Positions 7,502-63,189 are shown, counted from the first letter of the stretch. The stretch is 64,000 nt of DNA from an uncultured bacterium (GCA_964597845.1 CAZQZR010000001.1:6722-70721), one strand, 5' to 3'. Numbers and translations: made by a program. The notes: generated by a model from the sequence alone, not told the origin.

Positions 7502-7542
7502 CGAAGTCAAAGGGAAATCAGGAATCAACAATCTTGAGCTGA

Positions 7543-8070: not shown

Positions 8071-8143
8071 CGGCCCCAACGGGAGTCGAACCCGTGTCTT
8101 CACCTTGAAAGAGTGATGTCCTGAACCGCTAGACGATGGGGCC
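8071..8143 (-). tRNA. tRNA-Glu (anticodon UUC)
   Basis: Reverse complement reads GGCCCCATCGTCTAGCGGTTCAGGACATCACTCTTTCAAGGTGAAGACACGGGTTCGACTCCCGTTGGGGCCG. Anticodon loop CTTTCAA. Layout resembles E. coli tRNA-Glu. Confidence 0.9.
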
Positions 8144-8210
8144 ACCACTCTTCCGGGCCCGGGTGCGAAGCCGCCCGGCCCGGGTAAATCTAGCCCGCCG
8201 GGGCGGGTTG

Positions 8211-35825: not shown

Positions 35826-35867
35826 GCGGGTTGCGAGTTACGAGTTGCGGTTGGCGGGTTGTGGGTG
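35823..35867. repeat. octamer array GAGTTGCG (intergenic copy)
   Basis: GTTGCGGGTTGCGAGTTACGAGTTGCGGTTGGCGGGTTGTGGGTG. Confidence 0.85.
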
Positions 35868-46587: not shown

Positions 46588-46588
46588 T

Positions 46589-46690
46589 AGAAAGTAAGCC
46601 TTCGAGTAAGCCTTGGAAGGAACAATCCAGGAGACAGTGCGGCGAGGTTTCTAGTGAGCATTCAGAGGAGCTTTGAAGAGAGCTCTTGCG
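46589..46690. repeat. short 12-nt-period array related to the GAGCTTT family
   Basis: GAGTAAGCCTTC GAGTAAGCCTTG GAAGGAACAATC ... GAGGAGCTTTG AAGAGAGCTCTTG, immediately after the ADH stop codon. Confidence 0.6.
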
Positions 46691-46733
46691 CGTCCGTAGT
46701 CCTGACTTCTGCCGTTTGAAACCGGGCCTCTGA

Positions 46734-47854: not shown

Positions 47855-48297
47855 AGGCAGCATTCCTGATGGCGGCGATGGGGACGCTTGCACTGCTGGC
47901 GTGCGGCACGCAGCCGCAGCCCAAGCCGGTGGCCAGTACCGAGGTCCCTCCCAAGACGGAGAGCCTGGCACAGCCTGCCTATCCCGAAGAGGCGCGCAAG
48001 GCTGGCGTCGAGGGCAAGGCGATCGTGGAAGTGACGGTCGGCGCCGACGGCGTGATGCGCCGGTGCAGCCTCGTCGTCAGTTCGGGCAATGCGCAGCTCG
48101 ACGAAGCCGCTTTGCAGGCGGTGCATGTGTCGAAGTTCGCACCCGGCACCAAGGACGGGAAGCCGGTCGAGATGAAAGTGAGAGTTCCATTCCAGTTCAA
48201 GCTTGCTGACAAGCAGATAGAGCAACGCGGTGAGGCGCATGGTATCCCGGGCTGGGCCGGGCGGCACGAGCCGGTCATGCCGGCAATGGAGGTCTGA
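47851..48297 (+). CDS. TonB C-terminal-domain lipoprotein
   Basis: ORF 47761..48297 trimmed to ATG 47851 (ATGA overlap with the TrmB stop). MKAAFLMAAMGTLALLAC lipobox. YPEEARKAGVEGKAIVEVTVGADG is a TonB_C motif. Confidence 0.7.
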   Translation: MKAAFLMAAMGTLALLACGTQPQPKPVASTEVPPKTESLAQPAYPEEARKAGVEGKAIVEVTVGADGVMRRCSLVVSSGNAQLDEAALQAVHVSKFAPGTKDGKPVEMKVRVPFQFKLADKQIEQRGEAHGIPGWAGRHEPVMPAMEV

Positions 48298-48935
48298 TGG
48301 ACGCTACCGGCAAACCATATCCAGTCAGCCTGACCGTCGACTACCCGGAGGGATCGCGCAATCGCGCGTCCGTATTCTTCCGGTTGGTCTTGGTGGTGCC
48401 GATAACGGTGATGGTCGCCCTGCTCGTCGGGACGGAGTACCGCTGGGGTTTTGATGGGGCCGGGCGAGAACTCGCGTGGGCCACAGCCGGGTGTGTGGTC
48501 GCGCCGACGCTGCTGATGATTCTCTTCCGTCGCAAGTACCCGCGCTGGTGGTTTGACTGGAACCTGAACCTCAACCGCTTCCTGTTCCGCGTAAGCGCCT
48601 ACCTGGGGCTGCTCCGGGACGAGTATCCGTCCACCGATGATGAACAGGCACTTCACCTCGAGGTGGTCTACCCCGACGCCAAGATAGAACTCAATCGCTG
48701 GCTACCGCTGGTCAAGTGGTTCCTGGTTATCCCCCATATCATCGTCCTTTGCTTCCTCGACGTCGCCGCGTACGTTTGTGTCATCATCGCCTGGTTCGCG
48801 ATTCTCTTTACCGGCCGGTACCCGGGCGCTCTGTTCGACTTCGTGGTTGGAGTGATGCGCTGGCAGGCGCGGGTGATCTGGTACGCGGTGCTGTTCTCGA
48901 CCGACCATTACCCGCCGTTCAGCCTGGAAGCCTGA
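48297..48935 (+). CDS. DUF4389-family membrane protein
   Basis: 212 aa. The start overlaps the previous stop (TGATG). LVKWFLVIPHIIVL...WFAILFTGRYP pattern. Confidence 0.7.
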   Translation: MDATGKPYPVSLTVDYPEGSRNRASVFFRLVLVVPITVMVALLVGTEYRWGFDGAGRELAWATAGCVVAPTLLMILFRRKYPRWWFDWNLNLNRFLFRVSAYLGLLRDEYPSTDDEQALHLEVVYPDAKIELNRWLPLVKWFLVIPHIIVLCFLDVAAYVCVIIAWFAILFTGRYPGALFDFVVGVMRWQARVIWYAVLFSTDHYPPFSLEA

Positions 48936-48996: not shown

Positions 48997-49073
48997 AGGG
49001 GTTCTGGGTTTCAGGGGTTCCGGGGTTCGGGTCGGGCACTAGAACCCTTGAACCCGCGAACCCCTGAACCCTG
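48997..49073. terminator. long imperfect hairpin built from inverted GGGGTTC / GAACCCC octamer arrays between convergent genes
   Basis: Left arm GGGGTTCTGGGTTTCAGGGGTTCCGGGGTTCGGGTCGGG, loop CACTAG, right arm AACCCTTGAACCCGCGAACCCCTGAACCCTG. Lies between the DUF4389 stop (48935) and the YfiM-like stop (49077). Confidence 0.6.
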
Positions 49074-49076: not shown

Positions 49077-49502
49077 TTAGAAGCGGTGGATGAAGGCGAA
49101 GTAGCCGACGCAGATACCGGCGGCATCAGCCACCAGGTCCTTCCATGAGAAGTGTCTCGACGGCCCGGCCAGGTCGTTGAATTCCTTGCAGACACCCAGC
49201 GTCAGAGTGCCGCCCAGGGCAATACCGGTCGGCCAGGGAGATGGCATGTTGACCCGGTTGGCGCTCAGGTGATACGCCGCGCCGACGGTGACGAAGCTGG
49301 CCGAAAAGTGCCAGAACTTGTCCATCGCGAACCAGCGGTCGGTCTCGGACCGTGGTCGAGTGGTCGAAAGGGCAAGTGACCTAGTGGTCGAGTGGTCGAG
49401 TGGTCTAGTGGCGGACGAGCAGGGGAGCGGGCGAGGAAGGGAGTCGCGCAGGCTGGCCGGAACCGACTGGGCGAGGACGGTCAGCACAAGGAGCAGATTC
49501 AT
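49077..49502 (-). CDS. YfiM/DUF2279-like small envelope protein with repeat-derived linker
   Basis: 141 aa. DKFWHFSASF...CKEFNDL...FSWKDLVADAAG resembles YfiM. The linker SSATRPLDHSTTRSLALSTTRPRS is encoded by the AGTGGTC array at 49351-49414. Confidence 0.55.
   Translation of the reverse strand: MNLLLVLTVLAQSVPASLRDSLPRPLPCSSATRPLDHSTTRSLALSTTRPRSETDRWFAMDKFWHFSASFVTVGAAYHLSANRVNMPSPWPTGIALGGTLTLGVCKEFNDLAGPSRHFSWKDLVADAAGICVGYFAFIHRF
49351..49414. repeat. AGTGGTC octamer array inside the YfiM-like CDS
   Basis: CGTGGTCGAGTGGTCGAAAGGGCAAGTGACCTAGTGGTCGAGTGGTCGAGTGGTCTAGTGGCGG. Confidence 0.85.
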
Positions 49503-49656
49503 CGTCTGATTGTCGCAAGTCCCGCCGCCGAGTCAAGCTGAGGCGTCCGGAAACCGACATACAACCGCCGAGACCCGGAACGGAGCATCCGCAGATTACG
49601 CAGGCTACACGGATTCCGCTCCACTTTCCGCCAATCGACATCGACAATCGGGAAGC

Positions 49657-49926
49657 GAAAGCTCGCTAGAAAGCTCACCGGAAAGCTCCCTGGAAAGCTC
49701 ATCAGAAAGCTCCTTCAAGAGCTCATTTCAGAGCTTAGTCCAAAGCTCAATCCAAAGCTCATTTCACCGCTCAGCGCATAGCTCACGCCAAAGCTCAGGC
49801 CATCGCTTCTTCCATCGCTCAGCGCAAAGCTTCGCCGAAAGCTCCGGTCAAAGCTCTTCTGAAAGCTGGACTCAAGGCTCATTTTAGAGTTCTTTTCAAG
49901 GCTTGGCTGAAAGCTAGCTCGAAAAC
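49657..49926. repeat. 12-nt-period array (about 22 units) of SAAAGCTC octamer plus 4 variable nt (reverse orientation of the 35566-35825 array)
   Basis: GAAAGCTCGCTA GAAAGCTCACCG GAAAGCTCCCTG GAAAGCTCATCA GAAAGCTCCTTC AAGAGCTCATTT CAGAGCTTAGTC CAAAGCTCAATC CAAAGCTCATTT ... GAAAGCTAGCTC. Followed by AACCCGGGGGG. Confidence 0.9.
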
Positions 49927-50241
49927 AACCCGGGGGGTACGGGAGGGTATTCTGCTGGAAGCGAGGATAGTGGATTGAGAATAGGGAAGTTAGGACCCGT
50001 CTCGGGAAGCGGGGGAATGTGTGCTATGATACACATCTGAGAAGACGAAAACGAGTGGGAAGCCTGACCGGGGATTTCAGGAGATGCGGAGACTCCTGAC
50101 GCGCGGCTGCCGATGGAGGAACGTGACCGCTGCCCGTATGCCGTTAGCTGTAAGCCGCTAGCCGTCGGCCGCTCGTGCCGCGTGATTGTGCGCTGACTGG
50201 AACTGCAGACTCCCGGCGAAGCCGCGCCTCCCCGTCCGTTT

Positions 50242-50276
50242 CCTCTCACTAGACCACTGGACCACTCGATCACTTC
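50242..50276. repeat. GACCACT octamer array (inverted partner of 49386-49410)
   Basis: CCTCTCACTAGACCACTGGACCACTCGATCACTTC; its reverse complement GATCGAGTGGTCCAGTGGTCTAGTG matches GGTCGAGTGGTCGAGTGGTCTAGTG at 23 of 25 positions. Confidence 0.8.
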
Positions 50277-50560
50277 TTTCTGTATCCTTTTTCTGACACG
50301 AGAGTTGCGCGAATCAGACACATTGACCTTCTGCCTTTCGCGGCCCAGATTCTAACCATCATCTTCTCGGGCAGTTACACAAGCACCTGACCGGCTCCTT
50401 GTCAGGCACGGGCCGTGCTCTACTTCCGTCCGATGAGGCACGAAAATCAAGACCTCGGCACAAGTCGTAGGTCCGTGCTTCATCCGGCTGCACCGAACCG
50501 AGGCGACAGGGACATCCGCGGTGCAGGATGTCCGAAGACGCGATACCCAAGGAGGAACGC

Positions 50561-51510: not shown

Positions 51511-54141
51511 ATGTGGCGCGCGCTTGTTCTGCTCATGCTGCCCCTAGTGCTCGCGTGCCACCGCCGAGTTCCCCCGGTTGAAATCAACCTGCTCTGGCAG
51601 CGAGACTATCTCAACATTACGCCGGCGGACGTTAATGGCGACTCGACGGACGAATTCGTCTCCATAACAGATGACTATGTCCTTAACCGTATCAGTTCGG
51701 ACATGCGAGCCGCAGGCAAGACCATCTGGACGGATCGCGGGACATTCACCCCCTACAGCGTTGTTGGGGAGTCGAAGAAAACCGGCTTCTGGTACACACA
51801 CGTCCGGCACGACTCTCTGCTCCTATTCAGCTCGCTAGCGGGTCGAGACCTCCTTGTCACCTGTGGGCATGACTCCCTTCCACCGGCTGGCTGGGATGGC
51901 TCAGCCTCCGGCGTGACCCTGCTGGACATCGACAACGACGGCCGGCTCGATGCCATAGTGAGCTTCGGCAGCGGCTATGACGCCAGGCCGCGTGGGATGT
52001 GCGCCATCGACTATGCCGCAGGTGGCACAATCTGGACGTACCTGACCGGCCCGAATATTGACGAACCGCCGACCTTCGCTGACATTGACCACGACGGCCA
52101 GACGGAGATTCTCTTCGGGTCGCTGGCACAAAGGAACGGCAATGTGGCCAATGGGACAGCGGACGACAGCACCTATGTGTTCCTGCTTGACTGCCGAGGC
52201 AGACTGCGGTGGGCTAGACGAATCGGGCGATATTCCTCCATCGCCCACTCTGCGTTCGCACCGGCGAGTAGAGGAATGCCCGGCCGAGTAGTCGTCTACG
52301 AAACCGGCAGTGAGGAAGACGGCCGCTCGGGCGACAGCGCGTTCATCCTCGACTGGCGAACTGGAGAAGTCCTTGTGCGGCGTCAGTACGGTAGGTATTC
52401 GAGCTGCGGCACGACAGCCAGGGGCGCAGATGGACGGACACGTACCGTGCTCGGCGGCTCGGATGACACCCTGCGAGTCCTTGATGATTCGCTGAGGCTC
52501 ACGCGGAGTGCCTGGTTTCGCGGCGGCATCCGTCAGGTTATCGCCGGCAGCTTCTCGGATCGAGGCCAAGACGAGTTGGTCGTGCTGACGAATGATGGGC
52601 TCATGATTCTGCTTGACACACTGCTCCGAACCCGTGCCGTCAAGCCCTGTCCGTCTACCGCTGTCACCACCACGTTCCGGCTCGTGCGGTACGAAGGGAA
52701 GAACCGTCTGCTCGGGGCGAACTCAAACGGTCCCGGACGTACTTGGCAATTGTATGACTTCAGGACGGTCCCGGTGATCCAGCGACGCGTCCCGCTCACA
52801 TCTGTTCTTACGGGACTCGGATTCCTGCTGGCTACCTTCGTGGCCGTTCTGCTCTTGCTCCAAAGTCGTCAGACCCGCGACATCCGGGCGGTAATTCGCG
52901 GCCTGACCGGCCAAGCCGGTGTGGTTGAGTTGAACCTGCGCGGTGACGTGAAGCGAACCAACCCGAAGGCACGCGAGCTACTTGGGGGTGAGACCATTCC
53001 GTACGGTCCGCTGGCTCAGGCAGTTAAGGCGGCGCTGGGTGGCATAGCAGGAACCAACCCGAGGGAACTTCCAGTTGCCCTCGACAATGGCAAGACTGTG
53101 CTCGCACGGGCGGCGCGCGTGCGCACCGGCGTCATGCTCACACTGGAGGACATCTCGGCGGTCGAGTATCTGCAGTGGGTCAAGGCCTGGGCGCCGGTGG
53201 CGCAGAAGTTGGCGCACGGCATCAAGAATCCCCTCGGTACAATCATGGGCGCGGTCGAGCAGATAGAGACAGAGGTGAATAGGAGGCGGACGAAGTCAGA
53301 AACGAGAGGCGAGAAGCTAGAGGCTAGAAGTGCGGAAGAAGGGAGCGCGGAGGAAGTCAAGAGCCAGAAGCCAGAAGCCAAAAGCCAAGACGATACGGAG
53401 AAGGCGGACGAGCGGGTGAAGAAGTACATCGGATATGTGAAGGACGAAGTTGCCAGGCTGAAGAAGATGACCGACGCATTCATGCGGTTCACCAAGCTGA
53501 ACCCGCCTGCGCTCGAACCGAAGAACGTCAACGAGCTTGTCCGGAAGGTCGTAGCCAAGTACGAGGGCGCGCTGGCCAAGGGCATCTCGCTTGAGCTGAG
53601 TCTCGATGACCGGCTGCCGTTGGTGGCACTGGATGAAGAGGGAATCGCGAATGTGCTGGACATCGTGGTCGAGAACGCCGTCGAGGCGATGACGGTGAAC
53701 CCGAAGTCAACCACCGAGATACCAAGTCACCAAGCTCCGGACGGAACGGACGCGGAGACAAGGCAACACGGGGATGCGGCGAGGGCACTGAGGACTCGGA
53801 CGTCGGTCGGCGACAGCGAAAGCGAGTGTCATTCCGAGGGAGTCCGACGAGTCGAGGAATCTCGCCTGAGTGACCCCTCGACTCCGCTCGGGGTGACTAA
53901 AGGAGGCGGGTCGTATGTCCGAATCGAGGTCGAGGATACCGGAATGGGCATCCCGCAAAAGTACCTGGACAAGGTCTTCGAGCCCTATTTCACGTATGGC
54001 AAGGCTGACGGGACCGGATTGGGACTCGCCTTGGCCAAGAAGATAGTGGAGGACCACAAGGGGCGGATGGAGATGCAGAGCAAAGAAGGAGTCGGAACGA
54101 CGGTTACCATCGTGCTGCCGGCTAAGGGGAATGGTGAGTAG
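51511..54141 (+). CDS. sensor histidine kinase with FG-GAP/VCBS-like periplasmic domain and two low-complexity inserts
   Basis: ORF 51394..54141 trimmed to ATG 51511 (MWRALVLLMLPLVLA). H-box LAHGIKNPLGTIMG, N-box VVENAVEAM, G1 VEDTGMGIP, G2 GTGLGLA. Inserts at about 53287-53400 and 53700-53905. Confidence 0.8.
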   Translation: MWRALVLLMLPLVLACHRRVPPVEINLLWQRDYLNITPADVNGDSTDEFVSITDDYVLNRISSDMRAAGKTIWTDRGTFTPYSVVGESKKTGFWYTHVRHDSLLLFSSLAGRDLLVTCGHDSLPPAGWDGSASGVTLLDIDNDGRLDAIVSFGSGYDARPRGMCAIDYAAGGTIWTYLTGPNIDEPPTFADIDHDGQTEILFGSLAQRNGNVANGTADDSTYVFLLDCRGRLRWARRIGRYSSIAHSAFAPASRGMPGRVVVYETGSEEDGRSGDSAFILDWRTGEVLVRRQYGRYSSCGTTARGADGRTRTVLGGSDDTLRVLDDSLRLTRSAWFRGGIRQVIAGSFSDRGQDELVVLTNDGLMILLDTLLRTRAVKPCPSTAVTTTFRLVRYEGKNRLLGANSNGPGRTWQLYDFRTVPVIQRRVPLTSVLTGLGFLLATFVAVLLLLQSRQTRDIRAVIRGLTGQAGVVELNLRGDVKRTNPKARELLGGETIPYGPLAQAVKAALGGIAGTNPRELPVALDNGKTVLARAARVRTGVMLTLEDISAVEYLQWVKAWAPVAQKLAHGIKNPLGTIMGAVEQIETEVNRRRTKSETRGEKLEARSAEEGSAEEVKSQKPEAKSQDDTEKADERVKKYIGYVKDEVARLKKMTDAFMRFTKLNPPALEPKNVNELVRKVVAKYEGALAKGISLELSLDDRLPLVALDEEGIANVLDIVVENAVEAMTVNPKSTTEIPSHQAPDGTDAETRQHGDAARALRTRTSVGDSESECHSEGVRRVEESRLSDPSTPLGVTKGGGSYVRIEVEDTGMGIPQKYLDKVFEPYFTYGKADGTGLGLALAKKIVEDHKGRMEMQSKEGVGTTVTIVLPAKGNGE
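53287..53400. repeat. word-repeat insert in the kinase DHp region (GAGAAGC/CTAGAAG/CCAGAAGC words)
   Basis: CGGACGAAGTCAGAAACGAGAGGCGAGAAGCTAGAGGCTAGAAGT ... GAGCCAGAAGCCAGAAGCCAAAAGCCAAGACG. The first 45 nt duplicate the intergenic 54151-54188. Confidence 0.85.
53828..53866. repeat. REP-like word GTCATTCCGAG-N-CGAGGAATCTCGCC (copy 2, inside the kinase ATPase domain)
   Basis: GTCATTCCGAGGGAGTCCGACGAGTCGAGGAATCTCGCC. Confidence 0.7.
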
Positions 54142-55640: not shown

Positions 55641-55818
55641 GAAGTGATCCAGTGGTCTGGTGGCCCAGTGGTCGGGCGGTGTAGTGGTCAAGTGGTCTTG
55701 TGGTCCAGTGATCTAGTGAGGAAGAGACGGCGGCTATCGGTTCAGGAGAGTTCTGATGAAATTCGAGCCATGCACGAGACCGGTCGGAGGTGGTCTAGTG
55801 GTCCAGTGGTCTAGTGAG
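55641..55818. repeat. two AGTGGTC(N) octamer arrays (55641-55720, 55789-55818) downstream of the ApgM-like gene
   Basis: GAAGTGATCCAGTGGTCTGGTGGCCCAGTGGTCGGGCGGTGTAGTGGTCAAGTGGTCTTGTGGTCCAGTGATCTAGTGAG ... GGTGGTCTAGTGGTCCAGTGGTCTAGTGAGG. The second array contains the gene's stop codon. Confidence 0.9.
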
Positions 55819-57064
55819 GAGCGGACGCAAGCTCGCGACCGAGGAGAGTCCGGATGAAAGCAGACCCGCGGAGTAGGCCAAGGGAACCGGAAGCGCAGGC
55901 GACCTCGTCGTAGGACTGAACCGAGTCCGGCTCAAGGCGCGGGTTGAGTATGGCGACCGGAACCGGGCCGTGAACGTGATTGCCCTTCGCGACTGGCGTG
56001 AGGTGGTCGGTCAGGACGGCCACTGTGGCCTCGATCCCCTTGTCTTCAATCCCGTTCATCACGCGCGCGACCAGGCGCGAGTCGAGATACTCGATGCCAA
56101 GCACCTTCTGTTTCACATCCCGCGCGTGGCCGGCTTCGTCCGTCGCCTCGACGTGCACGTAGACAAAGTCATGGTCCTCAAGAACGTTCAGGCAGGCGTC
56201 GGCTTTGCCCTCGTAGTTGGTGTCAATCAGGCCGGTTGCACCGGGGACGTCAATCACGTCGAGCCCGGCATAGACGCCCAGCCCCTTAATCAAGTCAACC
56301 GCAGAGATGACCGCGCCGCTGATGCCGTACTGCTCTCTCATGGTCTTCATCTTCGGCTTGCGGCCCTGGGACCAGAACCAGATCGAGTTAGCCGGGTCCT
56401 TGCCGGCCTTGACTCGGGCTTCGTTGACTGAGTGTCGGGACAGCAAATCCCATGAGCAGCGAATCATGTCGTTCAGCCGGTCGACCGTCGGCTTGGCCTC
56501 GTCGGACTTCGGGACAATCATCAGGTCCTCGACCAACTCGCCGACGTGGTCGTGGGGCGGAAAGCACTCGAAGTCGGTAGAGAGAGTGGGACCAAGTGGC
56601 TGAGGGTCATCTGACGAGAGAAGGAGGAGGTGGCGGTAGGAGATACCGGGGAAGAAGCGAACCTCGTCACAACCAAGGTAACGGTCAACATGACGGATGA
56701 GTTTGTGGGCCTCCTCAGTGGAGATGTGACCCGCCGAGTGATTCTTGATGCGGCCGTCGGCAATGCAGATAAGGTTACAGCGCATGGCGATGTCGGTGTC
56801 GCGCAACTTGACGCCCATTGAGGCGGCCTCGATGACGCCGCGGCCCTGGTAGCATTCGCGCGGGTCGTAACCGAGCACGGTGAGATTCGCGACTTCCGAG
56901 CCGGGCGGCATGTCGTCGTCCACCGTGATGAATGAGCCGCAGCGGCCGAGACGAGCAATGCGGTCGATGGCAGGCTTATTCGCGACTTGGAGTGGAGTCT
57001 TATCGCCGAGTTCGGGGATGGGGAAATCGGCCGCGCCGTCGGCGAGGAAGATGATGGAACGCAT
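55811..57064 (-). CDS. cofactor-independent phosphoglycerate-mutase homologue (ApgM family; proposed homoserine kinase type)
   Basis: 417 aa. MRSIIFLADGAADFPIPELGDKTPLQVANKPAIDRIA is typical of ApgM-like metalloenzymes. Located in an operon with thrC. Confidence 0.75.
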   Translation of the reverse strand: MRSIIFLADGAADFPIPELGDKTPLQVANKPAIDRIARLGRCGSFITVDDDMPPGSEVANLTVLGYDPRECYQGRGVIEAASMGVKLRDTDIAMRCNLICIADGRIKNHSAGHISTEEAHKLIRHVDRYLGCDEVRFFPGISYRHLLLLSSDDPQPLGPTLSTDFECFPPHDHVGELVEDLMIVPKSDEAKPTVDRLNDMIRCSWDLLSRHSVNEARVKAGKDPANSIWFWSQGRKPKMKTMREQYGISGAVISAVDLIKGLGVYAGLDVIDVPGATGLIDTNYEGKADACLNVLEDHDFVYVHVEATDEAGHARDVKQKVLGIEYLDSRLVARVMNGIEDKGIEATVAVLTDHLTPVAKGNHVHGPVPVAILNPRLEPDSVQSYDEVACASGSLGLLRGSAFIRTLLGRELASAPH

Positions 57065-57197
57065 AGTGGTCTAGTGGTCCAGTGGTCTAGTGGTCGAGTG
57101 AAGGGAGAAGAATGTGGACGAGTGGTCCAGTGGTCTAGAGGTCAAGTGACGGGAGAAGACAGTGGTTAAGTGGTCCAGTGGTCGAGTGAGCACGTGG
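57065..57197. repeat. AGTGGTC(N) octamer arrays filling the whole M42/ApgM-like spacer
   Basis: AGTGGTCTAGTGGTCCAGTGGTCTAGTGGTCGAGTGAAGGGAGAAGAATGTGGACGAGTGGTCCAGTGGTCTAGAGGTCAAGTGACGGGAGAAGACAGTGGTTAAGTGGTCCAGTGGTCGAGTGAGCACGTGGTC; shows a higher-order unit of about 50 nt. Confidence 0.9.
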
Positions 57198-58256
57198 TCA
57201 GCGCTTCCTGCCGTTCGGCTCAACGTAAGCGAGAACCAGCCGCACGGTCGCGGCCAGCGCCTTGCGGTGGGTCCTTTCTAGGTTGTGCGAAGCGTTGATT
57301 CCCGGACCAATCAGTCCTGTGATGGCGTCCAGCCCGGCCCGCACCGCCACCGCTGCGTCCGAGCCATAAAACGGGTAGATGTCGACTTTGTATGGTATCT
57401 TCTGCGTCCGGCACAGCTTCACCAACCGCTGCCGTAGTGCGTAGTCAAACGGCCCGGTCGAGTCTTTGGCGCAGATGCAGACCGAGTATTCATCCGATTC
57501 CTGTCCCTTGCCGACTGCGCCCATGTCAACGGCAACCAACTCGCCGACTTCCGGCGGGATGCCGGCCGAAGCGCCGAAACCCACTTCCTCCGACGTGCTG
57601 AAGAGAAAGTGTGTGGCTAGTCGCGGCCGCGAACCGGAATCGGCTAGAGCCTTGAGCGCGCCGAGCAGGCAGGCAACCCCGGCCTTGTCGTCGAGGTGGC
57701 GGGTCTTGATGAACCCGGTTTCGGTCACCTCGCAGCGCGGGTCGAAATGGACGTAGTCGCCGACCGCGACGCCGAGCTTGGCGACCTGCTTTTCGTTCCG
57801 CACCTCGGCATCGAGCCGGATTCTCATGTTATCGAATTCCCGCTTGGCATCGGATATCTTCTTGCTGACATGGGCAGACGGCTCATCGAACAGAATGGTG
57901 CCGCGGAAGAGCTTGCCTGCGCTGGTCTCGACCGTGACGTACTCGCCCTCGACCGTGGCCAGCGCGTAGCCGCCGACCGCCGTGAATACGAGCGACCCGT
58001 CACTGCCGAGTTCCTTCACCATCGCGCCTAGGGTGTCGACATGGGCGGTGAGCGCCCGATGCGGGCCGGTCTCCCGGCCCTCAAGCGTTGCCAGCAGCGC
58101 ACCACGTCCGGTGCGCTTGTGCCCCACGCCCATCCGGGTCAGTTCCTTTTCGACATAGCTGACAGCCACGTCGGTGTGGCCGGCCAGGCTCGGCGTCTTC
58201 ACCAGCCGCACGACCTGTTCGACAACGTAATCGGTCAGGCGGTTATCATTTGGCAT
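57198..58256 (-). CDS. M42-family aminopeptidase/endoglucanase-like metallopeptidase
   Basis: 352 aa. LTAHVDTLGAMVKEL, RHLDDKAGVA and FSTSEEVG motifs. Confidence 0.75.
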   Translation of the reverse strand: MPNDNRLTDYVVEQVVRLVKTPSLAGHTDVAVSYVEKELTRMGVGHKRTGRGALLATLEGRETGPHRALTAHVDTLGAMVKELGSDGSLVFTAVGGYALATVEGEYVTVETSAGKLFRGTILFDEPSAHVSKKISDAKREFDNMRIRLDAEVRNEKQVAKLGVAVGDYVHFDPRCEVTETGFIKTRHLDDKAGVACLLGALKALADSGSRPRLATHFLFSTSEEVGFGASAGIPPEVGELVAVDMGAVGKGQESDEYSVCICAKDSTGPFDYALRQRLVKLCRTQKIPYKVDIYPFYGSDAAVAVRAGLDAITGLIGPGINASHNLERTHRKALAATVRLVLAYVEPNGRKR

Positions 58257-58340
58257 AGTGGTCTAGTGCTCCAGTGGTCTAGTGGTTAAGTGATAGGAGG
58301 AGATAGTGGTCAAGTGGCCCAGTGGTCACGTGATCAAGTG
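58257..58340. repeat. AGTGGTC(N) octamer array between the four-helix ORF and the M42 gene
   Basis: AGTGGTCTAGTGCTCCAGTGGTCTAGTGGTTAAGTGATAGGAGGAGATAGTGGTCAAGTGGCCCAGTGGTCACGTGATCAAGTG. Confidence 0.9.
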
Positions 58341-58757
58341 TCGGAAGCGGAGGAGAGTTTTCTCTCGAGCGCCCGGATAAGGGCCTTGGTAAGACGTTCG
58401 GTGTCACCGATTGACTGCAGCAGCCGGCCCGCTTCCTGGTCCGGCAGGTAGCAGAGCTTTATCGCCAGAAGTGCCTGAGTCTGTACCTCACAGATAGAGC
58501 CGTAAGCGATATAGAGCGAACGCAGGAAATCCGCAGTCGTGCGTCGTCCGAACCCCTCGGCGATGTTCGAGGGTATCGAGACCGCCGCACGCTGCACCTG
58601 TGCTGAGAGACCGTACGCTTCGGCCCTAGGGAAGCTCTTTGTCGCACGGTATACGTCGAGGCAGAGGTCGAAAGCCTTCTGCCACGCGGTCAAGTCCTGG
58701 TAGGTTCTTACTCGCTTTTTCTCTGTCACTGGATCACTGGACCACTGGGTCACTTGA
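58311..58757 (-). mobile_element. putative IVS-like cassette: four-helix-bundle ORF enclosed by ~30-nt imperfect inverted repeats made of AGTGGTC octamers
   Basis: Left arm 58311-58340 is CAAGTGGCCCAGTGGTCACGTGATCAAGTG. The reverse complement of right arm 58727-58757 is CAAGTGACCCAGTGGTCCAGTGATCCAGTG(A). About 26 of 30 positions match by eye. Confidence 0.45.
58334..58729 (-). CDS. four-helix-bundle protein (23S rRNA intervening-sequence protein / Avd family)
   Basis: ORF 58334..58786 trimmed to GTG 58729, just past the thrC stop. YQDLTAWQKAFDLCLDVY...YGLSAQVQRAAVSIPSNIAEGFGRRT..DFLRSLYIAYGS..E is the family signature. Confidence 0.8.
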   Translation of the reverse strand: MTEKKRVRTYQDLTAWQKAFDLCLDVYRATKSFPRAEAYGLSAQVQRAAVSIPSNIAEGFGRRTTADFLRSLYIAYGSICEVQTQALLAIKLCYLPDQEAGRLLQSIGDTERLTKALIRALERKLSSASDT

Positions 58758-60105
58758 ACACTCTCTGCAGGAAGCCCTTGAACCAATGGTAGTCATTCGG
58801 CCCGTGTTCGTAGTGCTCGGGTCTGGCATCAAGCCCGGCGAGCGACGGCGGCAGCGGCGGGTCGACGCCTAGCAGGTGTTGAATCTCCTCCGGGAACTTG
58901 GCCGGGTGAGCGGTTTCGATGGAGATGGCCAGAGGAGAGTTGCGAGTGGTCAAGGATTCCAAGTAGCGCTCGAGGCCGGCCCAGCCGACCGCGCCGTGCG
59001 GTTCGAGCATGGTTTTGTAATTGCTCCAGGCGTCCTTGATTGCCTGCCGGGTCCCCTCGTCGTCAATGCTCACCGGATATATGTCGCGCCGCATGGCCGC
59101 AAAGTCGGGCGGCTTCGAGATGCTGCCCTGTTCATCCATCACCCCGCCGTACAAGGCGACAAGCCGCGGCAGGTTGGATGGATGACCGACGTTCATCGCG
59201 TTGGAAATGCAGACACGCGACGGCACAATCCTCTCGTACCTGCCGGTGGCGACAAACTTCGGGAACTCATCGTTCGCGTTGGTCGCGATGACGAACCGGT
59301 CGACCGGCAGGCCCATGCGCCGGGCAATCAGGCCGCCGCAGATGTCGCCGAAGTTGCCGGACGGGACCGAGATGATTGCCGCTTCGTCGTTCTCCTGCAG
59401 CCGGGCCCAAGCGTACAGGTAGTAGACCGCCTGCGGCAGGAGCCGGCCGATGTTGATGGAGTTGGCCGAGGAGAACCGGATGCGCCCGAGTTCCGGGTCG
59501 GTGAAAGCGCGCTTGACCAGAGCCTGACAGTCGTCGAACTGGCCGTCGACGCCGATGACCGTAACATTGCCGCCGAGCGTCGTCATCTGCTTGCGCTGGC
59601 GGTCCGAGACTTCCTTAATAGGAAAGAGGACGACCATCGAGATGCGGTCGACGTTATGGAACGCGTGGGCGACCGCGGAGCCGGTATCGCCGGACGTGGC
59701 GGTCAGGATAACCAACTCGCCGCCTTCCTGCGCGAGGAAGTAGCGCATCATCCGAGCCATCATCCGGGCCGCGAAGTCTTTGAAGCTCGCGGTCGGGCCT
59801 TGGTCGAGGCGCATGAGGAACGTGCGGCCATAGACGCGTTCGAGCGGCACCGCGTAGTTGTAGCACTCGGCGCAGAGCCGCATCAGTTCATCGTCGGGAA
59901 TCAGGCCTTCCGTGTAGCGCCGCAGCACGGCAAAGGCGATTTCCGGGTACGGCTTCTCGCGGAACCCGATTATCTCGTCGAGCGGTATGCGAGGAATCTC
60001 GCGCGGCATGTACAGGCCCTTGTCCGGGGCTTGGCCGGTGAGAAGCGCGGTGCGTAAGTCGACGTCGGGGGAGGACAGGTTGGTGCTGTATAGAAGAGGG
60101 TTCAC
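58750..60105 (-). CDS. thrC: threonine synthase
   Basis: 451 aa. PLP-lysine motif GPTASFKDFAARMM, SGDTGSAVAH and SGNFGD. AGGAG 7 nt upstream of GTG 60105. Confidence 0.9.
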   Translation of the reverse strand: MNPLLYSTNLSSPDVDLRTALLTGQAPDKGLYMPREIPRIPLDEIIGFREKPYPEIAFAVLRRYTEGLIPDDELMRLCAECYNYAVPLERVYGRTFLMRLDQGPTASFKDFAARMMARMMRYFLAQEGGELVILTATSGDTGSAVAHAFHNVDRISMVVLFPIKEVSDRQRKQMTTLGGNVTVIGVDGQFDDCQALVKRAFTDPELGRIRFSSANSINIGRLLPQAVYYLYAWARLQENDEAAIISVPSGNFGDICGGLIARRMGLPVDRFVIATNANDEFPKFVATGRYERIVPSRVCISNAMNVGHPSNLPRLVALYGGVMDEQGSISKPPDFAAMRRDIYPVSIDDEGTRQAIKDAWSNYKTMLEPHGAVGWAGLERYLESLTTRNSPLAISIETAHPAKFPEEIQHLLGVDPPLPPSLAGLDARPEHYEHGPNDYHWFKGFLQRVFK

Positions 60106-60512
60106 GGCTTGGCTCCTGGAGGATTCGAGGATTCAAGGATTCGAGGATTCGAGTGCCGGCGTTCCAGTGACTTTATCAGTGACATCATCATTCGTTCCAC
60201 TTCGCGGATATCCTCGGATAGCTTGCCATATTCATCCAGCTTGAGGTATTCAAGGTCGCGAGCTAGCATCGTCTGGGTCTCCAGTTCGCTGTTCGAAGCG
60301 TACGCGAAGCGCAGCGAACGTAGGTAGTCACCAGTCGTGCTGCGGCTGTATCCCTCCGCGATATTGGACGGAACCGAGACCGCGGCCCGGCGCATCTGAG
60401 AGGTTAGGCCGTAGCGCTCGTCGGCCGGGAACTTCCTTGTCGACCGATAGACCTGCAGGCAGATTCGGTACGACTTCTGCCAGACCAGCAGGTCGCGGTA
60501 ATTCCTTAGCAC
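60102..60512 (-). CDS. four-helix-bundle protein (23S rRNA intervening-sequence protein / Avd family), second copy
   Basis: 136 aa. YRDLLVWQKSYRICLQVY...YGLTSQMRRAAVSVPSNIAEGYSRST..DYLRSLRFAYAS..E. The C-terminal RHSNPRILESSNPPGAKP is read-through of the AGGATTC array. Overlaps the thrC start by 4 nt. Confidence 0.8.
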   Translation of the reverse strand: MLRNYRDLLVWQKSYRICLQVYRSTRKFPADERYGLTSQMRRAAVSVPSNIAEGYSRSTTGDYLRSLRFAYASNSELETQTMLARDLEYLKLDEYGKLSEDIREVERMMMSLIKSLERRHSNPRILESSNPPGAKP

Positions 60513-60555
60513 GCTCCGCCCACTGGAATCCTAGAATCCTCGATTCCTCGAACCC
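60118..60555 (-). mobile_element. putative IVS-like cassette: second four-helix-bundle ORF enclosed by inverted AGGATTC octamer arrays
   Basis: Left arm 60118-60155 is GGAGGATTCGAGGATTCAAGGATTCGAGGATTCGAGTG. The reverse complement of right arm 60521-60555 is GGGTTCGAGGAATCGAGGATTCTAGGATTCCAGTG. About 23 of 27 positions match in the aligned core. Confidence 0.45.
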
Positions 60556-60558
60556 TTC

Positions 60559-61980: not shown

Positions 61981-63189
61981 CTATGCGGTGCGGGACATGC
62001 CGAGCAGTTCGGCGATGACCCCGAAACCAACCGCCATGCTTGCGAGCCAGACTGCCCAGCCCGCGAACGGGATGGCGCACAGACCAAAGACGATTACGAT
62101 ACCTACCGGCGCGGCCCACCAGAGCGATATTTCAGGCGCGCCGAAGATACGGAACAGCAGCCGCCCGGTGAACAGGCCGGCAAGGACTTTGGCGAGGTAC
62201 AGCGAGACAATGTACGCGGCCGCGGCGATGAGTCCGGCCGGGATCGTGATGATGAGCGCAAAGGCGACGAGGATGCTCATCGGGCCGATAAGAAACCCGA
62301 TGGCGCCGAACCCGACGGTGCGACCCCAATGGCTAAGCGAGCGAGCGAGCCCCTCATTGAGCACGTGCTTCCAGATTGCCACAAGCAGGAACCCGACCAC
62401 GAGCGCGCCGAGTATCGAGAGAATCGTGAACGGCAGGAAGAACGTGACGAACATGCCGGGCCGGGGTTTCATATTCCGCATGTCTTCGATTTCTTTGGGT
62501 GACGGGAGCAGCACGTGGTCGATGTTGCCGAAGACCATGTCGGGGTTGCCGATATCGATCTTCTTGTTCGAACGGTAGCGCAGGTTGCCATAGACACGGG
62601 CGTCGGGCGTAAGCGTGAGTTTGTCGGCCACGGTTACGTCGACGTTGCCGTCAATCGAGCCGGAGATGACGACTTCGTTGGCAACCGCCTTGACGTCGCC
62701 GCGCACCGTGCCGGCGATTTCGAGCGACCGGCAACCGGCGGCGACGTCGCCCCGCACTTCGGAGTTCTTGCCGATGACGAGGTTTGCACAGCCGGCCAGC
62801 ACGTCCTGGCCAACCGCGCCGTTGATGTAGACTGTGCCGGCGCCGGTCCGGACCGCGCCGCCGACGCGACCGCTGACGTTCAGCGTCGCGCAGAGGGCGA
62901 CAACGTCGCCGGCAACAGCGCCCGCGACATCCACGCTCTGGGCGGCAAGGAAGAGGTTACGCGTGACCGGGCCGGAGACGTTGATGGACTGGGCCCCGGC
63001 GATGGCCGAACCGTCAAGCCGGCCCTCGATGCGGAGCATCGTGCCGCCGTAGTAGATGTCGCCGATGCGCGTTTCTTCTGCCGGCAGCGTATACCCCGGT
63101 TCACTGACGAACTGAGCGGCGAGGGAAAGAGTGAAGAGAGAAGAGAGAAGAGTGAAGAGGCGAACCGGACGGGACAGCAGCTCACTCAC
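61981..63189 (-). CDS. bactofilin-like (polymer-forming cytoskeletal repeat) domain fused to a polytopic membrane domain
   Basis: 402 aa. Repeated G.V.GDV/V.G.V.G beta-helix-like units (SGRVGGAVRTGAG..INGAVGQDV..), then 4-5 TM segments. The N-terminal FTLLSSLFTLS is encoded by a GAAGAG word array. Confidence 0.6.
   Translation of the reverse strand: MSELLSRPVRLFTLLSSLFTLSLAAQFVSEPGYTLPAEETRIGDIYYGGTMLRIEGRLDGSAIAGAQSINVSGPVTRNLFLAAQSVDVAGAVAGDVVALCATLNVSGRVGGAVRTGAGTVYINGAVGQDVLAGCANLVIGKNSEVRGDVAAGCRSLEIAGTVRGDVKAVANEVVISGSIDGNVDVTVADKLTLTPDARVYGNLRYRSNKKIDIGNPDMVFGNIDHVLLPSPKEIEDMRNMKPRPGMFVTFFLPFTILSILGALVVGFLLVAIWKHVLNEGLARSLSHWGRTVGFGAIGFLIGPMSILVAFALIITIPAGLIAAAAYIVSLYLAKVLAGLFTGRLLFRIFGAPEISLWWAAPVGIVIVFGLCAIPFAGWAVWLASMAVGFGVIAELLGMSRTA
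63121..63163. repeat. GAAGAG/GTGAAGAG word array at the 5' end of a CDS
   Basis: GAGGGAAAGAGTGAAGAGAGAAGAGAGAAGAGTGAAGAGGCG; related AGTGAAGAGTGAAG lies in the tRNA spacer at 7989-8003. Confidence 0.8.

What the first reader, a model, noticed from the sequence alone, without database searches (positions are those of the whole stretch)
55641..58340. Every intergenic spacer of the ApgM-like/M42/four-helix operon segment is made of same-orientation AGTGGTC(N) octamer arrays
Arrays at 55641-55720, 55789-55818, 57065-57197 and 58257-58340 all read AGTGGTC(N) on the plus strand, which is GACCACU in the minus-strand mRNA. The only opposite-orientation array in the operon is the right arm of cassette 1 (58727-58757), so alternative long-range pairings are possible. 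The 133-nt M42/ApgM spacer consists entirely of the array and shows a higher-order unit of about 50 nt. The 20 nt before the ApgM-like ATG read CACTGGACCACTAGACCACT, with no Shine-Dalgarno. Many other genes in the window have AAGGAGG. The ApgM-like stop codon lies inside an array. This suggests the arrays act in RNA processing, translation coupling or protein titration rather than being neutral spacers.
Basis: seen in the sequence. Interest (0 to 1): 0.7.

Follow-up and report, generated by a model that had tools for sequence, protein, structure and literature searches.

The report
Repeat arrays left by mobile cassettes
The eight-base repeat arrays between these genes are the paired arms, and leftover single arms, of small mobile cassettes carrying a 'four-helix-bundle' gene, the gene also found in the intervening sequences of 23S rRNA; the cassettes inserted exactly between genes of an operon that has almost no spacers in a close relative.

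Summary
AGTGGTC(N) arrays fill every spacer of the ApgM/M42/IVP segment: 23 two-unit matches against 0.03 expected. The M42/ApgM spacer is 17 units in one 8-nt register, with a 48-nt higher-order unit.

Orthologous operons from eight related WOR-3 genomes explain them. One relative has no arrays and spacers of 3, 3 and 12 nt. Others carry a PF05635/TIGR02436 gene (IVP) flanked by inverted octamer arrays at different stop/start junctions. Decay intermediates also exist: an internally deleted cassette and an IVP-less hairpin.

The window's spacers are 48-nt copies of the cassette's 3' arm module. Their shared orientation therefore reflects history.

Across about 120 loci, solo arrays show no strand bias relative to transcription (24 vs 19). 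In 80 unrelated metagenomic IVP loci, 75 have tandem arrays within 150 nt, and 87% of those arrays have period 8 or 16.

The closest known element is the ORF-bearing 23S rRNA intervening sequence, which RNase III excises. RNase III cleavage of the paired arms here is inferred, not shown. The solo arrays are most likely tolerated remnants that now serve as unstructured leaders.

This is a new variant of a known kind.

The parts
55641..55720 (+). Solo octamer array block downstream of ApgM. It reads AGTGGTCN on + and GACCACU in the sense of the minus-strand operon. It is the 3'-arm type: its inner end is AGTGAGGAAGAGACGG, which is CCGTCTCTTCCTCACT in operon sense.
   Evidence: The same sequence follows the ApgM stop in L122 and L126.
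55721..55788 (-). Relic of a second ApgM 3' end, a near-copy of the ...FIRTLLNR* ending of L122. It lies between the two array blocks.
   Evidence: Read. L126 carries several such relics, each followed by an array.
55789..55818 (+). Three-unit array that contains the ApgM stop codon (55811-55813). It encodes the extra ApgM tail.
   Evidence: ApgM homologues are 401 aa without the tail and 417 aa or more with it.
55811..57064 (-). ApgM-like cofactor-independent phosphoglycerate mutase. Its ATG directly follows ...GACCACT.
   Evidence: Pfam PF10143/PF01676. The N-terminus aligns with relatives from residue 1.
57065..57200 (+). M42/ApgM spacer: 17 octamers in one register, forming three 48-nt modules. 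In operon sense each module is a CT-rich tail, then TCACT, then four NGACCACT units. The modules are homologous to IVP-cassette 3' arms. The M42 stop lies in the last unit.
   Evidence: TRF period 48, alignment A2. L124 and L129 have an intact IVP cassette at this junction, and L126 an IVP-less hairpin.
57198..58256 (-). M42 peptidase. Its ATG directly follows ...GACCACT.
   Evidence: Pfam PF05343.
58257..58352 (+). 3' arm of IVP cassette 1, made of two 48-nt modules. The proximal one (58305-58352) pairs with the 5' arm and overlaps the IVP1 C-terminus. The distal one (58257-58304) stays single-stranded in front of the M42 ATG.
   Evidence: Fold, duplex energies, alignment A2.
58334..58729 (-). 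IVP1, a four-helix-bundle protein (PF05635, TIGR02436). The likely start is the GTG of the inner AGTG motif at 58727-58729. An alternative GTG at 58753 overlaps the ThrC stop.
58722..58772 (-). 5' arm of cassette 1. On the minus strand it reads AGTGTTCA AGTGACCC AGTGGTCC AGTGATCC AGTGACAG. The ThrC stop TGA (58750-58752) lies in its second unit.
   Evidence: The same ThrC/arm junction occurs in L123 and L127.
58750..60105 (-). Threonine synthase.
   Evidence: Pfam.
60106..60153 (-). 3' arm of cassette 2 (GAATCCTC x4 in operon sense), followed by CCAGGAGCCAAGCC, which supplies an SD for ThrC.
60102..60512 (-). IVP2, a four-helix-bundle protein 52% identical to IVP1. Its tail is encoded by the 3' arm.
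60513..60556 (-). 5' arm of cassette 2 (GAGGATTC-type units, ending in AGTGGGCGGAGC before the GTG).
48997..49072 (.). IVP-less hairpin of the main octamer family (AGGGGTTC x4, 13-nt loop, GAACCCTT x4), between convergent genes.
49352..49411 (+). AGTGGTCN array lying in frame inside the linker of a VanZ-like ORF (49077-49502, minus strand).
   Evidence: Ortholog comparison.
50247..50274 (-). Reverse-orientation AGTGGTCN array. It may be the partner of 49352-49411 across about 840 nt of non-coding DNA.

Best explanation
The arrays are the terminal arms, and the surviving single arms, of a family of small insertion cassettes.

A complete cassette has three parts: a 5' arm of about four tandem octamers ending in AGTG; a PF05635/TIGR02436 four-helix-bundle gene (IVP), whose GTG start is usually the GTG of that AGTG; and a 3' arm of the complementary octamers.

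Shown:
- Cassettes sit co-directionally at stop/start junctions of operons. The upstream gene's stop lies in the first arm units, and the downstream start follows the last unit, either directly or after a short SD-bearing tail.
- In this WOR-3 lineage the ancestral operon was tightly packed. Cassettes were gained at different junctions, exchanged, and decayed.

Inferred:
- The window's M42/ApgM spacer and the post-ApgM arrays are copies of the 48-nt '3' arm module' that remained after the 5' arm and IVP gene were lost. This is why they all read GACCACU in the mRNA.
- In the transcript, the two arms of an intact cassette pair into a stem of about 32-40 bp. As in ORF-bearing 23S rRNA intervening sequences, RNase III cuts this stem, splitting the polycistronic mRNA and releasing the IVP segment.
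- The solo arms have no partner nearby. They act only as unstructured, C-rich, G-poor leaders containing stop codons in all three frames, and the downstream genes initiate on them without an SD.
- As dispersed direct repeats, the solo arms also promote deletion and duplication.
For: (1) Presence/absence in orthologous operons (bactofilin-CysMet-ThrC-M42-ApgM).
- L125 has no IVP, no arrays, and spacers of 3, 3 and 12 nt.
- L122 and L128 have an IVP cassette at CysMet/ThrC only.
- L124 has one at M42/ApgM. L129 has one at both junctions. L123 has one between ThrC and ApgM, with M42 absent.

(2) Decay intermediates.
- The 165-nt ThrC/M42 spacer of L127 is a cassette with most of the IVP deleted.
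- The 176-nt M42/ApgM spacer of L126 is a 5' arm, a short loop and a 3' arm, followed by extra 3' modules.

(3) Module homology. The window's three spacer modules align with the IVP 3' arms of L123, L124, L129 and of IVP1. The order of the 'variable' eighth base is conserved (T, A, G, A in operon sense) (A2).

(4) Mobility. The window and L122 share 95% identical CysMet and ThrC. Their IVPs at that junction are only 58% identical and have different arms (GAGGATTC vs AAGGGATA).

(5) Arm covariation. At the CysMet/ThrC junction the arms are GAGGATTC, AGGGTTCN, AAGGGATA or AGGGATCG. Each is complementary to its own 3' arm.

(6) Stems. Both window cassettes fold into a terminal stem enclosing the ORF (z = -4.9 and -4.2).

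(7) Generality.
- 75 of 80 metagenomic IVP loci have tandem arrays within 150 nt: 5.1 per kb near the gene against 0.76 per kb further away.
- 123 of 141 nearby arrays have period 8 or 16, and the modal copy number is 4.
- Neighbouring genes are co-oriented with IVP: 37 vs 4 upstream and 44 vs 9 downstream.
- IVP genes on cultured cyanobacterial and Gemmatirosa plasmids also carry flanking 7-8-nt arrays.

(8) Array pairs. Pairs of AGTGGTCN arrays in other genomes are ordered hairpin-wise 34 times and the other way 3 times. Gaps are either 4-205 nt or 378-419 nt, the latter being IVP-sized.

(9) Known relative. The Coxiella 23S IVS carries an S23p (PF05635) ORF preceded by 2-3 tandem heptamers, and RNase III cuts at the first repeat (PMC4990558).
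Against: - RNase III cleavage of these mRNA stems is analogy only. No transcript data were available.
- A test for sense-RNA-specific selection was neutral. In 68 cassettes, G.U-type mismatches number 99 and A.C-type 99. Pairing could equally matter at the DNA level, or be maintained by gene conversion.
- Most AGTGGTCN arrays in other phyla are not next to an IVP gene (tblastn hits in only 3 of 113 scan loci). Arrays or hairpins may therefore be the primary element and IVP an optional cargo.
- No target-site duplication or transposase was identified, so the mechanism of mobility is unknown.
- Why the retained pieces in the window are all 3'-type, and why the period is 8, is not explained.
- A selected function for the solo arrays cannot be excluded from sequence alone.
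Confidence: 0.75

Rival explanations
1. The same-orientation arrays are selected cis-acting RNA elements of the operon. Candidate roles are Rho loading (rut-like) sites, SD-independent translation enhancers or standby sites, or processing signals that uncouple the cistrons.
For: - In the mRNA the arrays are C-rich, G-poor and unstructured.
- They directly abut the ATGs of ApgM and M42.
- One unit upstream of M42 is mutated to give GGAG.
- The array downstream of ApgM is shared with L122 and L126.
Against: - The array-free relative L125 runs the same operon with spacers of 3-12 nt.
- There is no orientation bias across lineages (24 vs 19).
- The modules are copies of cassette arms.
- No promoter-like or terminator-like sites lie in the arrays.
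Confidence: 0.12
2. The arrays are binding sites for a repeat-reading protein, most plausibly the pentameric IVP itself. Solo arrays would then titrate or recruit it. The protein would be either an autoregulator that binds tandem RNA repeats as a ring or a mobility factor.
For: - IVP genes and 7-8-nt arrays are tightly associated across phyla.
- Arms have a narrow copy-number distribution, with mode 4.
- Solved relatives 2gsc and 2rld have five chains each. The Xanthomonas protein is a homopentameric toroid (PMC4990558).
- The IVP start codon lies at the inner end of the 5' arm.
Against: - The octamer sequence varies freely and does not track IVP phylogeny. L077's IVP has AGTGGTCG arms but is only 41% identical to IVP1, whereas IVP2 with GAGGATTC arms is 51-52% identical.
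- Mixed units occur within a single arm.
- Many arrays occur in genomes with no nearby IVP.
- In Coxiella the protein appears not to be made.
Confidence: 0.1
3. The arrays are ordinary slippage-generated microsatellites (STRR-like). They arise in situ in any intergenic DNA of this lineage and are unrelated to IVP cassettes.
For: - The window is full of other 7-, 8- and 12-nt arrays, for example in tRNA spacers and at 35583-35866.
- Arrays of different units abut each other in WOR-3 and other loci.
Against: - The order of the eighth base is conserved, and the 48-nt module is shared between junctions and genomes.
- Array density is 6.7-fold higher next to IVP genes, with period 8 dominant.
- Arms are complementary in each cassette.
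- Copy number is identical in 8 independent assemblies.
Confidence: 0.05
4. The arms are DNA-level ends of a transposable element, recognised as hairpins or inverted repeats by a transposase acting in trans. IVP-less hairpins would be its MITE-like derivatives, and RNA pairing would be incidental.
For: - The G.U and A.C mismatch classes are symmetric (99 vs 99).
- Dozens of IVP-less hairpins occur in single Phycisphaeraceae MAGs.
- Different cassettes occupy the same site in near-identical backgrounds.
Against: - No target-site duplication appears when empty and filled sites are compared.
- No transposase was seen next to the cassettes.
- Strong co-orientation with host transcription is not expected for a purely DNA-level element.

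This rival concerns how the cassettes move. It is compatible with the main explanation.
Confidence: 0.2

Closest known systems
ORF-bearing intervening sequences (IVS) of 23S rRNA (Coxiella, Leptospira, Xanthomonas, Brucella; PMC4990558)
   Same: The cargo gene belongs to the same family (S23p = PF05635). Complementary ends enclose the ORF in a stem. Short tandem repeats lie directly upstream of the ORF (Coxiella: GACAGAT x2-3, copy number variable). The ORF is prone to internal deletion, distribution is sporadic, and horizontal transfer is suspected. RNase III excises the element.
   Different: Here the element lies between protein-coding genes of an mRNA operon, not in helix 25 or 45 of 23S rRNA. 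Both arms are built from about four octamers. The cassettes respect the neighbouring stop and start codons. Solo arms and IVP-less hairpins persist as intergenic spacers. RNase III processing has not been shown.
STRR (short tandemly repeated repetitive) heptamers of heterocystous cyanobacteria, including those that extend helices of RNase P RNA and the trnL intron P6b stem (own knowledge; PMC2858038 and PMC4476775 were seen only in search listings)
   Same: Short tandem units occur in intergenic DNA and in RNA stems, with many unit types per genome and no known function. In a Nostoc plasmid an IVP gene is flanked by inverted heptamer arrays: GTAGGGA x8 and TCCCTAC x5.
   Different: The period is 8 rather than 7, and the phyla differ (WOR-3, Phycisphaerae). 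Here the arrays are explicitly tied to IVP cassettes and inverted arms. I found no such link described for STRR.
REP/BIME elements and MITEs (PMC3184786 was seen only in a search listing; otherwise own knowledge)
   Same: These are dispersed extragenic palindromes. Non-coding hairpin derivatives far outnumber coding copies. Mosaics with other repeat modules occur in a Phycisphaeraceae MAG. They can act as recombination substrates.
   Different: The arms are tandem octamers rather than a unique palindrome. No target-site duplication was seen and no RAYT or transposase was identified. There is an optional IVP cargo.
Rickettsia palindromic elements (own knowledge)
   Same: They insert into coding regions without destroying the reading frame. 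Here an array lies in frame in the VanZ-like linker, and arm-encoded tails are attached to ApgM, IVP and ThrC.
   Different: Unrelated sequence and organism. Here most copies are intergenic.
DGR accessory protein Avd
   Same: Homologous four-helix-bundle fold. There is a weak match to bAvd / NF033474.
   Different: The score is below the family cut-off (35.5 vs 80 bits). No reverse transcriptase or template/variable repeats are nearby.

Membership tests
23S rRNA intervening sequence (IVS) | Inserted in helix 25 or helix 45 of the 23S rRNA gene | tested here: not met
   The cassettes lie between CysMet/ThrC, ThrC/M42 and M42/ApgM. Rfam finds only 5 tRNAs in the window and no rRNA.
23S rRNA intervening sequence (IVS) | Complementary termini form a stem that encloses the element | tested here: met
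   MFE folds close both cassettes with long terminal stems (z = -4.9 and -4.2). The cognate arm duplex is -53.7 kcal/mol.
23S rRNA intervening sequence (IVS) | Optional ORF of the S23p / PF05635 family | tested here: met
   PF05635 at 117.7 and 124.7 bits (cut-off 33.8). TIGR02436 at 114.8 and 123.8 bits (cut-off 24).
23S rRNA intervening sequence (IVS) | Excised from the transcript by RNase III without religation | not testable with these tools
   No transcript data. Shown for Coxiella in PMC4990558.
TIGR02436 / PF05635 four-helix-bundle protein | Profile score above the curated cut-off | tested here: met
   Closest solved structures are 2gsc (E = 6.6e-34) and 2rld, each with 5 chains.
Cyanobacterial STRR | Heptanucleotide unit, in heterocystous cyanobacteria | tested here: not met
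   The unit is 8 nt. The organism is candidate division WOR-3.
MITE | Terminal inverted repeats plus a target-site duplication | tested here: not met
   Inverted arms are present. Comparison of empty (L125, L124, L123) and filled junctions shows no duplicated target.
REP/BIME | Imperfect palindrome of 20-40 nt mobilised by a RAYT transposase | not tested
   No RAYT search was done. The arms are tandem octamers with loops of 4-205 nt or an IVP-sized cargo.
Intrinsic terminator | GC-rich hairpin followed by a U run | tested here: not met
   No terminator-like site coincides with the paired arms, and there are no T runs after the arms.
Diversity-generating retroelement (Avd) | Avd equivalog score; adjacent reverse transcriptase and TR/VR repeats | tested here: not met
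   NF033474 scores 35.5 bits against a cut-off of 80. No reverse transcriptase appears among neighbours in any locus.
Phase-variable simple sequence repeat (contingency locus) | Unit-number variation between close strains that switches expression | tested here: inconclusive
   The 8 assemblies are the same strain and are identical. The conserved order of the eighth base across genomes argues against free slippage.

The most novel reading that the evidence does not exclude
IVP cassettes may be an autonomous, widespread class of mobile element that targets stop/start junctions of operons as well as rRNA helices. Under this reading, the tandem arms of 7-8 nt are produced or read by the pentameric IVP protein or by the mobility reaction. 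The classical 23S rRNA IVS, the many 'four helix bundle protein' paralogues, the STRR-type short tandem repeats of cyanobacteria, and the octamer hairpins of Phycisphaerae and WOR-3 would then all be products of one mechanism. Solo arrays would remain active as binding or recombination sites.
Probability: 0.2. Interest if true: 0.85.

Novelty: new variant of a known kind. Interest (0 to 1): 0.62.

Why it matters
Intervening sequences of rRNA and the very large 'four helix bundle protein' family (PF05635/TIGR02436) have had no known function or mode of spread for over 30 years.

This locus and its relatives show the same gene as part of a defined cassette:
- The cassette has octamer-array arms.
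- It is gained, replaced and lost at exact gene junctions inside ordinary metabolic operons.
- It leaves recognisable scars, which account for otherwise puzzling tandem-repeat spacers in WOR-3, Phycisphaerae and probably cyanobacteria.

This gives concrete, testable substrates. One can test RNase III cleavage of mRNA stems, IVP binding to repeat arrays, and insertion-site choice. It also gives a rule for annotating such spacers, and the artificial C-terminal tails they add to neighbouring genes.

The arrays also have demonstrable evolutionary consequences:
- apparent loss of M42 between two same-orientation arrays in one relative;
- duplicated gene-end relics;
- arm-encoded protein tails.

Tried and rejected
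- Within-population polymorphism. The 8 contigs carrying the identical M42 protein are the same strain. Differences occur only at chimeric contig ends, so they are uninformative.
- Rfam gathering search of the whole window: only 5 tRNAs.
- Sigma-70 promoter and intrinsic-terminator scan: nothing in the arrays.
- tRNA-derived origin. AGTGGTCTAGTGGT resembles eukaryote-type D-arm/A-box sequence from memory. No tRNA-like hit at any array by ARAGORN or Rfam, so this was dropped.
- Chi/KOPS-like polar DNA motifs. Considered because these are octamers. Arrays occur mostly as inverted pairs and without consistent polarity, so this was dropped.
- Test for RNA-specific selection by G.U versus A.C mismatches: 99 vs 99, no signal.
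- Anti-phage defence: no PADLOC match.
- Phage carriage: only 6 viral contigs hold the three-unit pattern. Not followed up.
- IVP as a universal neighbour of AGTGGTCN arrays: rejected. Only 3 of 113 scan loci gave a hit.
- Literature searches for a prior description of octamer or tandem-repeat arms around PF05635 genes outside rRNA found none. One search was wasted on the prefix 'bavd'.
- The cross-locus control was not independent, because arms from different loci share the same octamer family. It was replaced by the near/far TRF comparison.
- Gene calls for the orientation statistics are crude: long ORFs filtered by GC3-GC2.


Full report
OBSERVATION

The arrays are real and far beyond chance. 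TRF reports period-8 arrays at 55643-55718, 55790-55816, 57064-57200 and 58257-58340, all reading AGTGGTC(N) on the + strand. One array in the opposite orientation lies at 58726-58762. The two-unit pattern with up to one mismatch occurs 23 times in the window, against 0.03 expected from shuffles.

The M42/ApgM spacer is 17 octamers in one register (57065-57200), with a 48-nt higher-order period of 2.5 copies at 84% matches. The ATGs of ApgM and M42 both follow ...TAGACCACT directly. The ApgM stop lies inside an array. The same contig with identical arrays was assembled in eight independent metagenomes.

GENE CONTEXT

All genes of the segment are on the minus strand (Pfam; NCBIfam):
- bactofilin-like protein;
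- Cys/Met-metabolism PLP enzyme (CysMet);
- IVP2 (PF05635, TIGR02436 'four helix bundle protein');
- threonine synthase (ThrC);
- IVP1, of the same family and 52% identical to IVP2;
- M42 peptidase;
- ApgM.

Each IVP gene lies between inverted octamer arrays. IVP1 lies between AGTGGTCN-type arms. IVP2 lies between GAGGATTC x4 and GAATCCTC x4. Both cassettes fold into a long terminal stem that encloses the ORF (z = -4.9 and -4.2).

The organism belongs to candidate division WOR-3, according to the names sources give to close ApgM homologues.

THE DECISIVE COMPARISON

I fetched the orthologous operon from eight relatives whose ApgM is 77-86% identical.

- L125: no IVP and no arrays. Its spacers are 3 nt (CysMet/ThrC), 3 nt (ThrC/M42) and 12 nt (M42/ApgM).
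- L122 and L128: an IVP cassette only at CysMet/ThrC, with arms AAGGGATA / TATCCCTT.
- L126: a cassette at CysMet/ThrC with AGGGTTCN arms. Its 176-nt M42/ApgM spacer consists of a 5' arm, a short loop and a 3' arm with no gene, followed by extra 3'-type units.
- L124 and L129: an intact IVP cassette with AGTGGTCN arms at M42/ApgM. This is the junction where the window has its 133-nt array-only spacer.
- L127: a 165-nt ThrC/M42 spacer that is a cassette with most of the IVP gene deleted. What remains is the 5' arm, the first IVP codons fused to the last ones, and the 3' arm.
- L123: ThrC-IVP-ApgM, with M42 missing. I infer that this is the product expected from recombination between two same-orientation arrays like those flanking M42 in the window.

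WHAT THE WINDOW'S SPACERS ARE

I aligned the three 48-nt modules of the M42/ApgM spacer, the two modules downstream of IVP1, the two blocks downstream of ApgM, and the IVP 3' arms of L123, L124, L126 and L129. They share one consensus: nTCTGCTTCCnTCACT TGACCACT AGACCACT GGACCACT AGACCACT. Even the order of the 'variable' eighth base is conserved (A2).

Each module is therefore a copy of 'end of IVP plus 3' arm', not a freely slipping microsatellite. This explains why every spacer reads GACCACU in the operon's mRNA.

The extra tail of the 417-aa ApgM (...GRELASAPH*) reads into such a module. Homologues without it are 401 aa. I infer, weakly, that the tail derives from an IVP C-terminus such as RKLSSASDT*.

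The 68 nt between the two post-ApgM blocks (55721-55788) are a relic of a second ApgM 3' end, nearly identical to that of L122. L126 carries several such relics, each followed by an array. The arrays have therefore acted as recombination junctions.

MOBILITY AND COVARIATION

The window and L122 have 95% identical CysMet and 95% identical ThrC. The IVPs between those genes are only 58% identical and have different arms. Different cassettes thus occupy the same junction in near-identical backgrounds.

Across the CysMet/ThrC cassettes the arm unit changes (GAGGATTC, AGGGTTCN, AAGGGATA, AGGGATCG). In every case the 3' arm is the complement of its own 5' arm. Pairing is therefore maintained while the sequence drifts.

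In most cassettes the IVP start is the GTG of the conserved inner AGTG. The upstream gene's stop lies in the first arm units. The downstream start follows the last unit, either directly (AGTGGTCN type) or after a short SD-bearing tail (other types).

GENERALITY

A profile scan of metagenome contigs returned 80 IVP loci that are 42-82% identical to IVP1.
- 75 of them have tandem arrays within 150 nt of the gene.
- Array density is 5.1 per kb near the gene and 0.76 per kb elsewhere.
- 123 of 141 nearby arrays have period 8 or 16, against 46 of 131 elsewhere.
- The modal copy number is 4.
- The arms are inverted and are mostly AAGGATTC, AAGGGTTC or AAGGGGTC. AAGTGGTC differs from AAGGGGTC by one base.
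- Neighbouring genes are co-oriented with IVP: 37 vs 4 upstream and 44 vs 9 downstream (crude gene calls).

IVP genes on plasmids of cultured organisms show the same kind of arrays:
- Nostoc edaphicum: GTAGGGA x8 and TCCCTAC x5, between the two ribonucleotide-reductase genes.
- Calothrix: inverted heptamers.
- Gemmatirosa: octamers.
- Pseudanabaena: AAAAGCT x17 and AAAAGCC x10 in direct orientation, between cas6 and cas4.

THE AGTGGTCN UNIT ELSEWHERE

- about 64 from Phycisphaerae and other Planctomycetota;
- 14 from WOR-3;
- the rest scattered over many phyla.

Neighbouring opposite-orientation arrays are ordered AGTGGTC...GACCACT 34 times and the reverse 3 times (p about 1e-7). Gaps are 4-205 nt or 378-419 nt. 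Only three of these loci encode an IVP. One is a Phycisphaerae locus, L077, where the gene sits between AGTGGTCG arms. Most copies are therefore IVP-less hairpins or solo arrays. In one Phycisphaeraceae MAG they form mosaics with other recurrent modules.

- Orientation. Solo arrays between co-directional genes read AGUGGUC in the mRNA 24 times and GACCACU 19 times. WOR-3 loci alone are also mixed. There is no general strand rule.
- Structure. The solo spacers fold no better than shuffles (z = -0.02 and -0.69).
- Alternative pairings. The single 5' arm pairs best with its cognate module (-53.7 kcal/mol). It could also pair with every other array at -38 to -50 kcal/mol, against -15 to -24 for shuffles.
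- SD. About 20 of 48 genes have an SD-like core. ApgM lacks one in the array-free relative too.
- RNA versus DNA. G.U-type and A.C-type mismatches in 68 stems are 99 and 99. This gives no evidence that pairing is selected on the sense transcript only.

MECHANISM: SHOWN AND INFERRED

Shown:
- the arrays are cassette arms and their remnants;
- cassettes are gained, replaced and decay at exact junctions;
- arms stay complementary;
- cassettes are co-oriented with host genes.

Inferred by analogy with the ORF-bearing 23S rRNA IVS: the paired arms are cut by RNase III, which splits the operon mRNA and frees the IVP segment. In Coxiella, the S23p ORF is preceded by 2-3 tandem heptamers, RNase III cuts at the first repeat, and the ORF is decaying (PMC4990558).

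Inferred from sequence:
- solo 3' arms are tolerated scars that now serve as unstructured, C-rich leaders carrying stop codons in all three frames;
- downstream genes initiate on these leaders without an SD;
- as direct repeats, the solo arms drive deletions and duplications.

Unexplained:
- how the cassettes move;
- why the period is 8 and the copy number about 4;
- whether IVP touches the arrays.

The octamer does not track IVP phylogeny, which argues against a strict protein-sequence code.

COMPARISON WITH KNOWN SYSTEMS

The element works like an IVS but fails the defining location test, because it is not in 23S rRNA. It is not STRR sensu stricto (period 8, other phyla). It is not a MITE (no target duplication seen), not an intrinsic terminator, not a DGR Avd (below cut-off, no RT), and not a known defence gene. 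Seven literature searches found no description of tandem-repeat arms around PF05635 genes outside rRNA.

VERDICT

The arrays are best filed as a new variant of a known kind: IVS-like IVP cassettes and their remnants inside protein-coding operons.

Interest is 0.62. The particular spacers are probably scars, but they expose a widespread and uncharacterised cassette architecture.

Noticed in passing
window 48997-49072: A hairpin made of AGGGGTTC x4, a 13-nt loop and GAACCCTT x4 lies between convergent genes (48297-48935 + and 49077-49502 -). It looks like an IVP-less member of the main octamer family. Similar hairpins follow ApgM in L124 and L127.
   Followed up: partly
window 49352-49411, inside ORF 49077-49502 (-): An AGTGGTCN array lies in frame in the linker between the N-terminal hydrophobic segment and the DKFWHF motif of a VanZ-like protein. 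It encodes ...ATRPLDHSTTRSLALSTTRPRS.... L124 and L127 orthologues also have array units there. L125 has a non-repeat linker of similar length.
   Followed up: partly
window 55721-55788; L126 7300-7420 and 11230-11440: Relics of ApgM 3' ends (...FIRTLLNR* and ...FIRTLLGRELASxPH* types) are stacked between arrays. The two types occur in opposite order in the window and in L126. L126 also has a 134-aa ApgM fragment next to the NtrC-like gene. This suggests repeated recombination at the arrays.
   Followed up: partly
L123 5500-6030: M42 is absent. ThrC-IVP-ApgM is joined through one AGTGGTCN-type 3' arm. This is the product expected from recombination between the two same-orientation arrays that flank M42 in the window.
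   Followed up: partly
window 7391-8144: A cluster of five tRNA genes (Lys, Leu, Cys, Gly, Glu; minus strand) has spacers that contain heptamer arrays (CAGATTG x4, TTCGCAC x2.3) and a 14-mer array.
   Followed up: no
window 49657-49910, 35583-35812, 46588-46700: A separate family of 12-nt arrays (GAAAGCTCnnnn and its complement GAGCTTTC...) occurs in opposite orientations at two sites. One lies in a non-coding stretch of about 1 kb (49503-50527), bounded by AGTGGTCN arrays of opposite orientation.
   Followed up: no
window 3313-3371, 24251-24286, 31707-31745, 63127-63159, 53305-53388: Heptamer arrays (CTCTCGC x8, GCGAGTT x5, CATTTTG x5.6, AAGAGAG x4.7, AGCCAGA) lie at or inside the ends of long ORFs. 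I did not check whether they are coding or whether the starts are mis-called.
   Followed up: no
L122-L129 versus the window, CysMet gene: CysMet falls into two types that are 64-69% identical to each other and 82-95% identical within a type. ThrC next door is 84-95% identical throughout. The operon is a recombination mosaic.
   Followed up: no
L026, L033, L035, L036, L042, L047, L058, L059, L081, L083, L094, L102, L111, L118, L119 (mostly Phycisphaeraceae MAGs CAZJMK and CAYRTH): AGTGGYCN arrays are followed by a few recurrent modules, for example ...acgccctcaccctaaccctctcccggagggagagggg..., ...ttagcgccgcgatttatcgcgtctg... and ...tttagcgcggacgctttgcgtcggc.... They form BIME-like mosaics.
   Followed up: no
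L211 (Nostoc edaphicum pNe_5), L212 (Pseudanabaena galeata pPg_01): In L211 an IVP gene with inverted heptamer arms sits antisense between the ribonucleotide-reductase beta and alpha genes. In L212 an IVP gene lies between cas6 and cas4, flanked by direct (not inverted) AAAAGCT x17 and AAAAGCC x10 arrays.
   Followed up: partly
L215-L220 (IMG/VR contigs): Six viral contigs contain three or more consecutive AGTGGTCN units. Their context was not examined.
   Followed up: no
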